Below the pieces are notes generated by a model. The model had not been told where the DNA came from, did not search any database, and saw nothing but the letters and a program-made list of their open reading frames with translations. Shown piece by piece: positions 6,330 through 58,280 of a DNA stretch of 64,000 bases; position 1 is the first letter of the stretch, and every line of letters begins with the position of its first letter. Made by a program: the position numbers and the translations under genes. The DNA is from Eledone cirrhosa (taxonomy: Eukaryota). The stretch is from NCBI GenBank assembly GCA_964016885.1, contig OZ024741.1, positions 377,146,001 to 377,210,000 of the forward strand. Reading direction: 5' to 3'.

Positions 6330-6775
6330 GTTAAAATAACAAAATATGTTTGTCTGTGTGTTTTTGCTACGTGGGTGTTAGTCTGAGAGTTACATTTTGA
6401 TATAGATATGTGTACATATGAATGTATTTAAATAATCTTACATATATAGTTATATAGATATACAAATCTCCATAAAATATGTCAATTCATTCTCCAGCTC
6501 ATATTATTTATCTTTCACTCTCTCTCTCACACACACAGGAAAACTCCAAGGAAAACTTAAACCGTTAAGGTATGTTCCTTGGCTATGTCAACAGTTATAA
6601 AACACACTTTGTATTTTATCTGGTGAACGCGTACCAACATTTTTCGTACCCTTGAAATATATATAATAGAACAAATGTGGTTTTATAAATAAATATAGTT
6701 TCCATTTATTTCATATCATTGAATATTATACTCCAGAAACTTGTTGGCTGCTCGGAATGAGTTATAAACATTTAT
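6330..6775 (+). mobile_element. Solo PLE pLTR (family of 55030-56628)
   Basis: 6560-6715 aligns with the reverse complement of 55030-55190; outer boundaries uncertain. Confidence 0.6.
6615..6670 (+). ncRNA. Degenerate type I hammerhead ribozyme
   Basis: TTTAT-CTGGTGA-stem II-GAAAT-ATAT-ATA-ATAGA; core A6G. Confidence 0.55.
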
Positions 6776-6942
6776 ATTTGTTGAATTACCAATAAATTGA
6801 TATCCCTTTTGATTCTCTCTCTCTCTATCTCTCTCACTCTCTCTATCTCTCTCTCTCTCTCTCTCTCTCTCTTTATATATATATATATATATATATATAA
6901 AGAATAAAAAAGAACAGAAATATGCAGTAAAAGAGATTTATT

Positions 6943-7073
6943 CGGTTCTAACGTACGTTTCAATAGACATCAATTTGCCTAGATCTCACTGCATCTATAA
7001 TATTATATAGTTAGTAGAACATTCGACATCCAATGCATAATCGATTCCATATCATCAGAGATTATATTTACCG
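6943..7073 (-). ncRNA. Type I hammerhead ribozyme with long stem II (inverted pLTR copy)
   Basis: Reverse complement of 9766-9896, core intact. Confidence 0.7.
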
Positions 7074-7460
7074 TACCGGAATGTTCAAGTTTTAATAGGA
7101 ATTCATGTGAAGTTGAAGTAGAGAAGAAGGAGGATGTGACAAAGACGAGAGAGATATGGGTGTTTTTCATGGTTGTTGATGTAAAACAGATGGGAGGATA
7201 ACATACGATAATGAAGTCTAGATATGGACTAGTCCAACTGTGTGTGTGCTAGGGAGATGGTAGACGTTGATAGGTTTATGATCTATGATAGATGGAGGCA
7301 GGGGAGATTAGGCCGAGTGAGTTATAATGTATGTAGGAGGAGATGTTGAATAGGGGAGATGTGGTCAATAGAAGGCATAGCAATAATCCATGGGGACAGA
7401 TAAAGGAAGTAGAAGGAAGATAGAGGAAAGCAGAAGTCGCAGGATGAAATCAAGCCAGGT

Positions 7461-8177
7461 TTGTATTTCGAGAACGTAGCCTTGACAGGTAAATCTACTC
7501 TTATACAAATTAACAATGAGGCACACAAAATAGTTAAGAACCTGGGTATAGATGACAGGACAGAACCAATAATTCCAGCGACCCCATCCTTTAATTCAAT
7601 GGACCACAAAGTCAATTTCCATGCAAACCCCCAGATTAGACTAATATGCCCATCGAAATCGGATATAGGTAAAGTAAATAAATATATATTAGATAGAGTA
7701 ATCCCCCAGTTAAAACGGATAACTGGCATAACACTCTGGGCAAATACTGAGGAGGCGGTATGTTGGTTTAGTAATATCAAGGATAGGGATGAATCAAAAT
7801 GTCTCCAATTCGACATAAACGACTACTACTCTTCCATATCACCCGATACCCTGCATAAGACCCTAATGTTTGCCAGAGATAATTCTGACCTAACCGACGC
7901 GGAAATAGGCATCATCCTTGATGCCAGAAAAACCATAATTAAGTTCGATGATAGCTACTGGGTGCGCAAAGATCGACCATCTTTCTTTGATATCACGATG
8001 GGCTCAAACGATTCGGCCGAAGTCACAGACGTAGTGAGCATCTTCATCGCTCAAGCACTAGAGAAAAAATTCCGCAATCTACAAGGGGGTATCTACCGCG
8101 ACGATGCGCTCTTTTTAGCTAAACACCTAACAACCAGAAAATTGAAAGATTACGTAAGCAAGTTAGCGAATTGTTAA
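7461..8177 (+). CDS. PLE reverse transcriptase core fragment (frameshifted into 8171-8395)
   Basis: RLICPSKSDIGK, QFDINDYYSSI, ITMGSNDSAEVTD, GGIYRDD; first codons derive from the inverted pLTR. Confidence 0.85.
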   Translation: MYFENVALTGKSTLIQINNEAHKIVKNLGIDDRTEPIIPATPSFNSMDHKVNFHANPQIRLICPSKSDIGKVNKYILDRVIPQLKRITGITLWANTEEAVCWFSNIKDRDESKCLQFDINDYYSSISPDTLHKTLMFARDNSDLTDAEIGIILDARKTIIKFDDSYWVRKDRPSFFDITMGSNDSAEVTDVVSIFIAQALEKKFRNLQGGIYRDDALFLAKHLTTRKLKDYVSKLANC

Positions 8178-55029: not shown

Positions 55030-56628
55030 AACAAATGAAAACTATATTTATAAAACCATATTTATTTCATTATACATATTTCAAGGATACCAGGTTAAAT
55101 TCTGGTATGCCTTCATCAGATAAAATACAATACAGATTTGTTTTATAAATAAATGTTGACATTCCCTGATAAAAGACAACCTTAACGGTTGGAGCTTCCT
55201 GGTTAGTTAAGATATTACATTTATTGAGGGTGATAGAAAATTATGATTAAGTATGCAAATGAGAGTCTGAAAGGTTGAAAAGATAACGGTTTATTTAAAT
55301 TAAACTGTTAGAAGAAGGTGATATGTGAGGGAGAGAGAAAAAAGAAATAAATAAATAAAGAAGCATCGATTATATATATTTTTTGACAGTGAAAATAGTG
55401 TGAAGAGAAGTGCGTAAGTATATTTTTAAGTGAGAGAAGATATTAGTTTCAAAGGACAAATACAACGTAAGTATATTTACGTGAGAGGAGACATGAAGAA
55501 AAGAAGAAAAGAGAATATCGTGGAGGAATAATATTTATAATGCAGGATTCGTTATGTTTTGATTATAATATTTATAATGATATCTTGAAAAATTAAATTA
55601 AAGATTTAATTTAATAATTTAATAATTAGTTTAAATGTGTATGTTAAGTATTATAAATTATTAAAAAAATATATATTATTTTACATTAGAGCAAATCTAG
55701 TATAGTTTATTTTATTAAAATTTGTAAGTCAAAAATTTAAAACATCCAAATAATTCTAAATTTATGGAAAATTTTCGAGAGTTTACAAAATAACCACTTA
55801 GTTATATTATAAAAACAGTAAGGGGGTTATAAGTGATTTTTTAAGAACTCAGATGACTCTAAGGATTAAATGCTATAAAGTTAAGAAGTTATATTTTCGA
55901 TCTTAAGAATATAATTAGAACATGAACCTTATGTTATTTTATACGAAGTCATAAATTTGCTTGCTATAAAGTTAAAACATTTACAAAATGTTCTTAAGAA
56001 TATATTTAAAGCATAAACTCCACATATATATTAAACAAACATATGCTTTTCCACATATATATAAACATTTGCATATATATATTAAAAACGTTTGAAAATA
56101 TAAGAATATAAAAATATAGTTTTTCTATATTTTTCAAAGGAATTTTCAAAAGATTTTCTTAAACCCTTCCGAAAAAATTTTCCTTAAAGGAGTTTCAAGC
56201 AGTCATATAAAGGAATTTTATAATCTATCTATAGGTGTAATAATATATATGTGAAGTAGAGATAATAGAAAATAAATTAAGTATATGAATCATATATGGA
56301 TATAGAAGACATTATGTAAAAGAGATAAGTCGTATATTACATTTTATATATATATTTAAAGTTGAATTTAAACGATGTTTGCAAGAACTGAATAAATTGT
56401 TCCTCAAATTAATAGAGTTCTTACTTTTTAGTATAAAGAATATGTCTTCGACATAAAGGGAACAATTTTTGGATAAAGCAGTGTATGAAGTGTATGCAGT
56501 GTAAAGAATAGTTAATGTTCTTTGATTTCAGGTCCCATAGTAAGTTAGATAGAGAAGTTGAAGATTTTTTACTAATATTCGTAAAAGAACATTTGTGGTT
56601 ATTAAAGCGGGAATTGAAGTCTGTCAAT
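55030..56628 (-). mobile_element. Decayed Naiad-like PLE 3' end with long AT-rich 3'UTR
   Basis: FNSRFNNHKCSF..STSLSNLLWDLK, SSCKHR; HHR near the end. Confidence 0.75.
55068..55124 (-). ncRNA. Hammerhead ribozyme, stem III damaged
   Basis: rc TTAT-CTGATGA-AGG(C)ATACCAG/CTGGTATCCT-GAAA-TATGT-ATAA. Confidence 0.6.
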
Positions 56629-56630
56629 TA

Positions 56631-56668
56631 CGAGCTGAGGATCCGCTAAGGTGAAACAATTGTTCTCG
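56631..56668 (+). ncRNA. Minimal type I hammerhead ribozyme, canonical core
   Basis: CGAG-CTGAGGA-TCC GCTAA GGT-GAAAC-AATT-GTT-CTCG. Confidence 0.85.
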
Positions 56669-57130
56669 GTGTGGTGAACTAACTGTTGTGTAACCACTTC
56701 TACCTAACTCGTCCCACGGACTGAGTGCTCTACCACTACGGATATTACCTTCCAGTGTTCTACCACTATATATATATGTATGCGAAATGTAAATATGATC
56801 TAATCGAATATTAATAATATTTTATCTGTTTTCAATTATAGAAACAGTCTCTTTAATAGGCCATGTATGTAGAATGAGCACATCATTCTTGGTCTTGTGT
56901 TGGCATATAAACAGAACGGCAGACACTAATATCTATGGGTGACATAACCCTTCATCAGTACCGTGCCAATATAAGTGAAAAATGTCGGAGTCATTCTAAC
57001 TACATGGCTGTTTGCAATAATTACTAACGAATCGAATAATAATATTAATTTTCAAGAAGCTCAGATTTATATTTCCTGCATTCAGCCATGTAGAGCAATA
57101 AAACAATTTGTTATATATATATATATATAT

Positions 57131-58280
57131 AGTCCTGAATAATCGGAGCATATAAAAGGTTAAACAAGTTTTTATTAAATAATAACATTTTTATTGAATA
57201 ATAATACATTAACATTCTAAGAAATATAATATTTTAACAACACAATATGGTAAATGATAAATATATAAATAATGTAAATTTATTATAACATTATAATATA
57301 TAAGTGTTCTTTTAATATTTATTAATATTCTAACTTTATTCTAACTCCATATTTTTAAGTTTTATAAGTATATAACAGTAAACATATAAATTACCTCCCT
57401 TATTTAATTACCTCCCTTAGTCTGTCTACATCTAGATTTTTTCCATACTATTTAAATGTTTAACAGTTTAATACGAGTTTATTTATACTCAAACAGTCTA
57501 AAGGTTTTTACTGGCTGATATTTGAATTTTAACCAACGTGAGGTACTATTTTGAAAATGTCATGCAACGAGTACATTGACCTCATATAATCAATCATACT
57601 ATCGATTCTATATATGGGATTGAAACATCTGGTATGACACGACTGCAAGGACATCGAATTGGTACTGTTATCATAACCTTAAAGAAAAAAATCTTTATCT
57701 CCCTATTTTGGATTATATGTATTGTGACTGTGTCTGTTCGGACTCTACAATTCTATACTTAATACTTATATGTTTTTTACCTATGGGCAATATATTCTAC
57801 TGCATGAACATTATAAAGCTTTTTCCTTAAAATCAATATATCTTTTGATATTTATATCTATTGTATGCTCTTACTACACCATTTTCTTATTGCATCTACT
57901 CTACTCTTATTGATATTTTTGATATGATATTCTGGCTATCATATTTTTGTCATGATTTTTTGCTATAAGTAATAACCATATCCCTATACACACCTCATAA
58001 TATTTATATTATAGCTTTAACACAATTTTTTCATTATAATATTTCATTACTATTTTAATATCTATTCAAATTTATTTTGCTCTTGCTCTTTAAGTTATTG
58101 GAATTAACACTTATAATTAGTCTCCTCACATATAATGTATCCTGTTAAATATTCTAATGATTAGGAATATATTTGTTTTAACCTTTTATATGCTCCGATG
58201 AACTCAGACCTATATCTGGAGAAAAAGATCGTAAGCCATTAAATGCCTTAAATACAATTTGATTGTTATTTATGTTGTAT
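57131..58280 (+). mobile_element. Old PLE-like remnant with short inverted copy
   Basis: 57142-57167 is rc of 58173-58199; HHR at the 3' end; TA flanks. Confidence 0.55.
58192..58236 (+). ncRNA. Degenerate hammerhead ribozyme, CCGATGA (U4C) core
   Basis: GCT-CCGATGA-TCAGA/TCTGG-GAAAAA-GATC-GTA-AGC. Confidence 0.55.

What the first reader, a model, noticed from the sequence alone, without database searches (positions are those of the whole stretch)
6615..58236. Very dense hammerhead community: about 23 motifs from about a dozen families, all in (TA)n-associated DNA
Seen: HHR or HHR-like folds at 6615, 6943, 9766, 10340, 10771, 11180, 13916, 14573, 15968, 17693, 18267, 19481, 19885, 23469, 23707, 26882, 29655, 30478, 33592, ~33990, 55068, 56631 and 58192. 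I found none in the 36-55 kb LINE block. Many families have their own palindromic stem III loop (GTAC, AGCT, ATAT, AATT, GATC, AGAGCTCT). Known: PLE pLTRs carry minimal HHRs that act as dimers through palindromic loop III. Inference: family-specific palindromes could act as a self-recognition code limiting cross-dimerisation, and read-through transcripts would be cut on both strands.
Basis: partly seen in the sequence, partly recalled or inferred. Interest (0 to 1): 0.72.

Follow-up and report, generated by a model that had tools for sequence, protein, structure and literature searches.

The report
Hammerhead tails of Penelope retrotransposons
The 23 motifs are real copies of the small hammerhead RNA motif that Penelope-type jumping genes are known to carry at their ends; this crowding is normal for this animal genome, which holds well over 100,000 such motifs, and the palindromes that likely let two copies pair are shared between families rather than forming a selected identity code.

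Summary
They lie near the 3' ends of Penelope-like element (PLE) insertions in (TA)n; coding remnants show Hydra-clade and Neptune-like PLEs. The window is not special: 9 descriptor hits against 6.4 per 64 kb in unselected stretches. The genome is: one motif class alone matches 145,583 times (control 16,376), and sampling suggests about 300,000. Helix III self-complementarity is real and covaries, as published. It is not a family code: unrelated families share words (CGTACG, TATATA/TATGTA, CAATTG), sisters mostly keep theirs, sharing is no rarer than chance, and three families fold helix III alone. Cross-family dimers are still predicted to fail (0 of 120 pairs), because stem I must also match. 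Cutting of read-through RNA is doubtful: inverted pairs are predicted to zip the ribozyme to its antisense copy. No cleavage or RNA data. The scan reached the same reading before on another piece of this genome (e1-8664523). Side findings: an abundant family with a fixed U4A core, and one scrambled-order hammerhead candidate.

The parts
6612..6673 (+). HHR family F1, damaged (CUGGUGA core); helix III TATATA
6944..7064 (-). HHR family F2 (90-nt stem II, CGTACG), inverted 5' copy
7446..9391 (+). Broken Hydra-clade PLE RT + GIY-YIG coding region of family F2 (YRDD, CxCX5C, CxxC, CxH)
9775..9895 (+). HHR family F2, 3' copy, core as family majority
10336..10388 (-). HHR family F3 (U3-A8 core, CAGAGCTCTG), inverted copy
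10766..10818 (+). HHR family F3
11176..11236 (-). HHR family F5 (canonical core, TATATA)
12615..12660 (-).
13915..13990 (+). HHR family E, damaged (15-nt deletion removes GAAA); family has its own hairpin helix III
14567..14616 (-). HHR family F (Neptune-like; GAAC majority, 2-bp stem I), core intact
15963..16012 (+). HHR family F, damaged (GAGA)
16229..17420 (.). Hydra-clade endonuclease remnant (+) and inverted piece (-) upstream of family G
17699..17803 (+). HHR family G (U3-A8, 74-nt stem II, CGGTCG)
18263..18325 (+). HHR family H (CCACTGG), damaged core and cleavage site
19477..19538 (+). HHR family H, damaged (CUAAUGA)
19883..19930 (-). HHR family I (U3-A8 majority, CGTACG), damaged (C3 opposite A8), inverted copy
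20302..23021 (+). Broken Hydra-clade PLE coding region of family I (DKT, YSDD)
23466..23513 (+). HHR family I, damaged (UUCAUAA)
23703..23757 (-). HHR family J (U4C core, CAGCTG), 3' copy
25188..26492 (-). Hydra-clade PLE thumb + GIY-YIG frame of family J (423 aa)
26878..26932 (+). HHR family J, inverted copy
27966..29150 (+). Broken Neptune-like PLE RT + CCHH-type GIY-YIG region of family F
29650..29699 (+). HHR family F, core intact
30475..30571 (+). HHR family K (extra A after A6, long stem II, CATTTG)
31372..31423 (-).
32383..32434 (+).
33590..33686 (+). HHR family L (U3-A8, own hairpin helix III)
33982..34031 (-). HHR family F, damaged (G3, G16.1)
36367..54900 (.). Block of non-LTR (RT + zf-RVT) elements, few (TA)n runs, no accepted HHR
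55063..55127 (-). HHR family F1 (canonical core, TATGTA)
56627..56672 (+). HHR family M (U-U at base of stem II, CAATTG)
56912..56966 (-).
58187..58241 (+). HHR family N (U4C, CGATCG majority), damaged (AAAA for GAAA)
58287..58443 (.). Head-to-head pair of family Z HHR copies
4656..4717 (+).

Best explanation
The motifs are type I hammerhead sequences carried near the 3' ends of many families of Penelope-like retrotransposons that sit in (TA)n repeats, and the window is an ordinary sample of a genome full of them. Shown: the motifs, their families, the PLE coding remnants upstream of several, the (TA)n run downstream, the inverted copies, the covariation of all three helices. Inferred: elements insert at (TA)n by target-primed reverse transcription from the 3' end and are mostly 5'-truncated, so the HHR-bearing end is what piles up, often as a head-to-head pair; new TA runs attract further insertions, while LINE sequence lacks the target. 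Inferred from published work: most families need two copies, whose helix III segments pair between copies, to cut the element's own tandem transcript; three families would fold as single copies. A mixed dimer would need a helix III match and a stem I match, so families are predicted to be insulated as a by-product of drift under selection for self-pairing, not by a selected palindrome code. Lone or inverted genomic copies are likely inert.
For: Families with hundreds to thousands of candidates. PLE-type coding remnants beside F2, G, I, J (Hydra motifs) and F (Neptune-like). TA run within 200 nt downstream of 51% of 81 motifs against 15% of 3960 random points; upstream 14% against 15%. Density 9 against 6.4 (79 unselected stretches) and 6.7 (20 neighbouring stretches) per 64 kb; P about 0.2, or 0.12 without one tandem array. 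Sequence-only core matches: 26 of 124 have both self-pairing helix III and 3-bp stem I, against 0-1 of 65-69 in 3 shuffles. 12 of 14 pairs change on both sides across 14 motifs. Word sharing not below chance: 5 of 105 identical lineage pairs against 1.6 or 3.7 expected; 15 of 25 sister pairs identical. 11 of 12 close opposite-strand pairs are head-to-head and folding zips 52 of 53 ribozyme bases to the antisense copy.
Against: No cleavage or RNA data (not testable here). Only 5 of the window's 14 families were tied to coding sequence in the window; the Hydra-type protein set found few upstream matches for the others, so their PLE origin rests on layout, TA ends and inverted pairs. By homology count the window has 20 sites per 64 kb against 9.1 in single unselected stretches (library biased to window families), so up to twofold enrichment is possible. 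Words are diverse (11 distinct among 15 lineages; 17 among 20 with singletons) and in the J/N lineage the palindrome is the only predicted barrier, so a code among sisters is not excluded.
Confidence: 0.82

Rival explanations
1. Family-specific palindromes are a selected self-recognition code that keeps co-resident PLE families from cross-dimerising.
For: Only 3 of 120 window family pairs and 30 of 1519 unrelated cluster pairs can pair through helix III. Sister subfamilies with the same stem I differ by double changes: CAATTG / CAGCTG / CGATCG, CAATTG / CGGCCG.
Against: Unrelated families share words (F2 and I; F1 and F5 compatible; CAATTG in at least three stem II types among 8,108 genome matches). 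No deficit of sharing against random palindromes. Helix III is as conserved as stem I and more than stem II between sisters (0.88, 0.87, 0.81; 17 pairs). F, H, K are not palindromic; F3, E, L fold helix III alone. Dimers form mainly in cis within one tandem transcript (PMC4209133), which needs no code.
Confidence: 0.1
2. The cluster acts on host read-through RNA, cutting it on both strands (a transcript trap).
For: Motifs lie on both strands; 14 of 23 keep the family core; three families could work singly. Cores differ from the family majority about half as often as flanks.
Against: Density is the genome norm. The core conservation can come from selection during transposition. Sense copies in inverted pairs are predicted to be sequestered. 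Few same-strand intact partners exist. PMC11167929 (passages): the Anolis PLE HHR did not cleave without the element's protein and no RNA-seq reads ended at its site. PMC4209133: low activity even as dimers.
Confidence: 0.06
3. Most motifs are chance look-alikes in AT-rich DNA.
For: No Rfam hammerhead at gathering score.
Against: Shuffles, covariation, family majorities and 8,108 against 6 and 145,583 against 16,376 genome matches.
Confidence: 0.02

Closest known systems
Minimal and small-palindrome type I hammerheads in pLTRs of metazoan PLEs (Cervera and de la Pena 2014, PMC4209133; read: parts 1-2 of 4)
   Same: Type I layout, weak palindromic helix III, extra base after A9, U3-A8 core, 2-bp helix I, many families per genome, mostly lone truncated copies, opposite-strand pairs 100-700 bp apart.
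   Different: Far higher number here (about 129,000 net for one class against about 9,000 in Xenopus tropicalis); several families with 70-90-nt stem II; fixed U4A and A6a cores.
Hydra clade PLEs (Craig et al. 2021, PMC8557442; read: section 11 and passages)
   Same: CxCX5C linker, CxxC and CxH motifs, DKT, no CCHH, short elements, HHRs, insertion in (TA)n, inverted 5'-truncated copy.
   Different: Described from few families, mostly cnidarian; here several abundant families. RWK motif not found in the broken frames; no tree built.
Neptune clade PLEs (PMC8557442 passages)
   Same: Family F has a Cys linker, C..C and H..H around YIGET, and TA targets.
   Different: Linker spacing is longer than CX2-5CxxC by eye; clade not tested by tree.
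Non-LTR retrozymes of the axolotl (Cervera and de la Pena 2020, PMC7229834; passages)
   Same: Six-figure HHR count (126,247); dimer dependence; U-U at the base of stem II in one family.
   Different: Those are tandem arrays of two families; here dispersed copies of at least 47 lineages. One retrozyme-like array was seen in the sample (L239).
PLE-associated dimer hammerheads of Lunse, Weinberg and Breaker (seen only as a reference title; text not held)
   Same: By its title: small variants, PLE-linked, cleave as dimers.
   Different: Could not compare; my recollection of about 150,000 motifs over all genomes is from memory.

Membership tests
Type I hammerhead (PLE min-HHR) | CUGANGA and GAAA cores plus UH site in type I order | tested here: met
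   Family majorities; variants U3-A8 (5 families), U4C (2), A6a (1); 9 of 23 copies damaged
Type I hammerhead (PLE min-HHR) | Stems I and II with covariation | tested here: met
   (motifs chosen by a pairing descriptor, so leaning); non-circular check
Type I hammerhead (PLE min-HHR) | Short self-complementary helix III | tested here: met
   10 of 16 families fully self-pair; 3 have central mismatches; 2 long hairpins plus F3 fold alone (F3 is in both groups, so 11 self-pair counting it)
Type I hammerhead (PLE min-HHR) | Self-cleavage, as dimer | not testable with these tools
   no assay; no RNA reads
Rfam Hammerhead_1 (RF00163) | Score at or above gathering threshold | tested here: not met
   best 14.8 bits against 34
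Penelope-like elements | RT followed by C-terminal GIY-YIG endonuclease upstream of the HHR | tested here: met
   F2, I, F (RT and EN remnants), J, G (EN side); not shown for the other families
Penelope-like elements | Inverted 5'-truncated terminal copy | tested here: met
   four inverted pairs at 88-98% identity; 11 of 12 head-to-head in unselected DNA
Hydra clade | CxCX5C linker, CxxC, CxH, no CCHH, DKT | tested here: met
   read against PMC8557442 section 11
Hydra clade | RWK motif and placement in an RT tree | tested here: inconclusive
   RWK not found in broken frames; no tree built
Hydra clade | Insertion into (TA)n | tested here: met
Neptune clade (family F) | Cys linker plus CCHH endonuclease | tested here: inconclusive
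   motifs read by eye; no tree
Non-LTR retrozyme | Head-to-tail tandem units of 170-400 nt each with an HHR | tested here: not met
   no such array in the window

The most novel reading that the evidence does not exclude
This genome carries some 300,000 hammerheads from dozens of co-resident Penelope lineages, the densest load found in my searches, and sister subfamilies that share stem I have switched their helix III palindromes by double changes (CAATTG, CAGCTG, CGATCG) under selection to stop cutting each other's RNA: a self/non-self code between selfish elements.
Probability: 0.1. Interest if true: 0.72.

Novelty: new member of a known kind. Interest (0 to 1): 0.33.

Why it matters
The biology is published. 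What is worth keeping is scale and variety: about one hammerhead per 10 kb from at least 47 lineages in one 3-Gb genome, invisible to Rfam, with natural sister sets that differ only in the palindrome. That makes two open questions testable in one species: what PLE hammerheads do, and whether intact sense copies are selected against in introns. The fixed U4A and A6a cores would widen the known tolerance of the catalytic core if they cleave.

Tried and rejected
Rfam scans: no hammerhead at threshold; the microRNA matches are simple repeats. First strict descriptor found 2 of 23 and was replaced. Genome DNA searches for families J and L returned nothing (common words are skipped); their copies came from fetched loci. 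Pfam scan of 27 frames found only RT/zf-RVT domains, none for the Hydra-type frames. Sequencing runs: no RNA holder listed; no reads laid. Descriptor hit 50961 in the LINE block rejected. Seven weak singleton clusters of 72 were dropped before the collision tests, and 23 of 71 clusters without a majority seen twice. I expected clear over-sharing of palindromes; the uncurated test gave exactly chance (3 of 190 against 3.0; not run against the constrained null), the curated one chance or slightly above. The 'compatible pairs' excess is not used, because its null has no wobble pairs. Literature searches listed no paper on heterodimer specificity of PLE hammerheads, on natural U4A cores, or on counts of this size in an invertebrate; most subscription papers and the Lunse paper are not held, so absence from print is not shown. 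No supplements were read.
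Full report
Observation. I read all 23 sites on both strands. A descriptor that allows the U3-A8 and U4C cores, an extra base after A9, long stem II and one core change gave 10 hits at score 18 or more in the window, against 0-2 in each of 8 block shuffles; 8 of the 10 are reader sites, one is new (12652) and one, in the LINE block, was rejected. For the rest I fetched genomic copies (two searches were blank) and compared each window copy with its family majority. All 23 belong to 14 families whose majority has a complete type I layout. 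Nine copies have core-breaking changes (6615, 13916, 15968, 18267, 19481, 19885, 23469, 33990, 58192); 14 keep the family core. Rfam does not see these motifs. A model built from 14 copies outside the window, several from the same families and all with a 6-nt helix III, hits 12 of 23 sites at E<=0.25 and nothing in 36-55 kb.

The structure is under selection. In 99 unselected 10-kb stretches, 124 sequence-only core matches include 26 with both a self-pairing 6-nt helix III and a 3-bp stem I; three shuffles give 0, 1, 0 of 65-69. Across 14 motifs, 12 of 14 pairs change on both sides (these motifs were picked for pairing). Among 304 copies of 18 families, core bases differ from the majority about half as often as flanks, and 62 have a changed core; this can reflect selection while families were moving.

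What carries them. The 423-aa frame at 25188-26459 matches clusters with GIY-YIG and HTH_animal domains. Those homologues map to remnants at 7446-9391, 16229-17420, 20302-23021 and 25197-26492, each upstream of an HHR. The frames show CxCX5C, CxxC, CxH and, in family I, DKT, the marks of the Hydra clade, whose families insert in (TA)n and carry HHRs (PMC8557442 section 11). Family F has an RT and a CCHH-type endonuclease, Neptune-like by eye. For the other nine families no coding link was shown. Four insertions are framed by inverted copies at 88-98% identity, the arrangement described in PMC8557442. A (TA)5+ run lies within 200 nt downstream of 51% of 81 motifs against 15% of random points, with no excess upstream at that distance. 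The 36-55 kb block is non-LTR sequence poor in TA runs.

Density. At score 20 or more: window 9; unselected stretches 79 in 789,800 bases (6.4 per 64 kb; 15 of them in one stretch with a tandem array; 5.3 without it); neighbours 21 in 200 kb (6.7); shuffled control 2. Resampling gives P about 0.2, or 0.12, for 9 or more. A homology count gives 20 against 9.1 (single stretches) and 7.7-19.2 (50-kb blocks) per 64 kb, with a library biased to the window's families. The window is thus normal to twofold rich. Genome-wide, an exact pattern for one class (canonical core, stem II 8-38 nt, 6-nt helix III) matches 145,583 times against 16,376 for the reversed control (stems not checked per match). My sample predicts 87,000 for that pattern, so it does not overstate. 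The descriptor extrapolates to about 290,000 (190,000-450,000). Published counts I saw: about 9,000 in Xenopus tropicalis and 4,000 in coelacanth (PMC4209133), 126,247 in axolotl (PMC7229834). 275 distinct hits in 1.55 Mb fall in 72 clusters; 65 kept form 47 lineages.

The code idea. In a double hammerhead, helix III forms between the two copies and each stem I joins the 5' strand of one copy to the 3' strand of the other (established model, PMC4209133 fig. 1 legend and text; the topology step is my inference). A mixed dimer therefore needs two matches. Among 16 window families (120 pairs) helix III is compatible in 3, stem I reaches 3 bp at either junction in 14, both in 0. In the wider sample 4 of 1519 unrelated pairs pass both at both junctions. 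But the words are not family tags: F2 and I share CGTACG, F1 and F5 are compatible, G and N too, and CAATTG follows at least three unrelated stem II types (8,108 matches against 6). F (GAAC), H and K are not palindromic; F3, E and L fold helix III alone. Selection for a code predicts less sharing than chance: observed 5 of 105 identical lineage pairs against 1.6 (uniform palindromes) or 3.7 (first base as observed); 3 of 78 against 1.2 or 2.6 at a looser lineage cut; 3 of 190 against 3.0 with singletons. It predicts fast change between sisters: 15 of 25 keep the same word, and helix III identity (0.88) is not below stem I (0.87) or stem II (0.81) in 17 pairs. What remains is the J/N lineage and one other, where double changes keep self-pairing but alter the word; that supports the dimer, and leaves a code among sisters open at low odds. 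Samples are small.

Read-through RNA. In unselected DNA 11 of 12 close opposite-strand pairs are head-to-head, as are the window's four, so on either strand the antisense copy is transcribed first. Folding puts 52 of 53 ribozyme bases of the F3 pair into the long duplex, and duplex energies exceed the motifs' own folds several times. With nine damaged copies, few same-strand partners, low published activity and a PLE HHR that needed its protein (PMC11167929 passages), cutting of host RNA is unlikely but untested.

Comparison and verdict. U3-A8, the extra base after A9, 2-bp helix I, palindromic loops and opposite-strand pairs are in PMC4209133; U4C, A6a (low activity) and U-U at 10.1-11.1 are in PMC3088659. 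These are new members of a known kind. Earlier scan notes reached the same reading on other DNA and led me to look for scrambled hammerheads. Interest 0.33, mostly for the genome-wide load and the side findings.

Noticed in passing
window 13253(+), 31402(-), 32404(+), 58340(-), 58390(+): Family Z: type I hammerhead layout with a fixed CAGAAGA (U4A) core in 18 of 19 complete copies in unselected DNA, 5-bp stem I and its own hairpin helix III; 36 anchors in 990 kb suggest about 100,000 copies; at least 1.3 kb of non-coding upstream sequence. One paper search for natural U4A listed nothing; no look-alike in earlier notes.
   Followed up: partly
window 4656-4717 (+); truncated copy near 4165-4200: Hammerhead blocks in S-G-C order with covarying 7-bp stem I and 4-bp helix III in 13 other copies; 6 in 990 kb. 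Order as type SGC of PMC10085705 (passages). Stem II pairing not tested. Other scan notes describe such motifs in this genome.
   Followed up: partly
window 30475-30571: Family K has an extra A after A6 in 15 of 18 aligned rows and a T-T centre in helix III; two diverged relatives lack the insertion.
   Followed up: partly
L239:1-3400 (G000:C3:190000001): Eleven head-to-tail 310-bp units, each with the same hammerhead: a retrozyme-like array.
   Followed up: no
window 9775-9895, 17699-17803 and several clusters: Hammerheads with 50-100-nt stem II insertions are common in this genome and conserved within families.
   Followed up: no
window 2131-2314 and 32793-32976: Very abundant short repeat, SINE-like by eye (over 110 matches in 990 kb).
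   Followed up: no
window 4746-5849: 1.1-kb inverted repeat (88%) centred on a TA run.
   Followed up: no
window 2788-3208 (-) and 56357-56639 (-): Hydra-type coding remnants with no hammerhead found downstream.
   Followed up: partly
window 36369-38316 and 46191-48137: Two 90%-identical copies of a non-LTR element within the LINE block, nested with a second family; AAT repeats at several ends.
   Followed up: no
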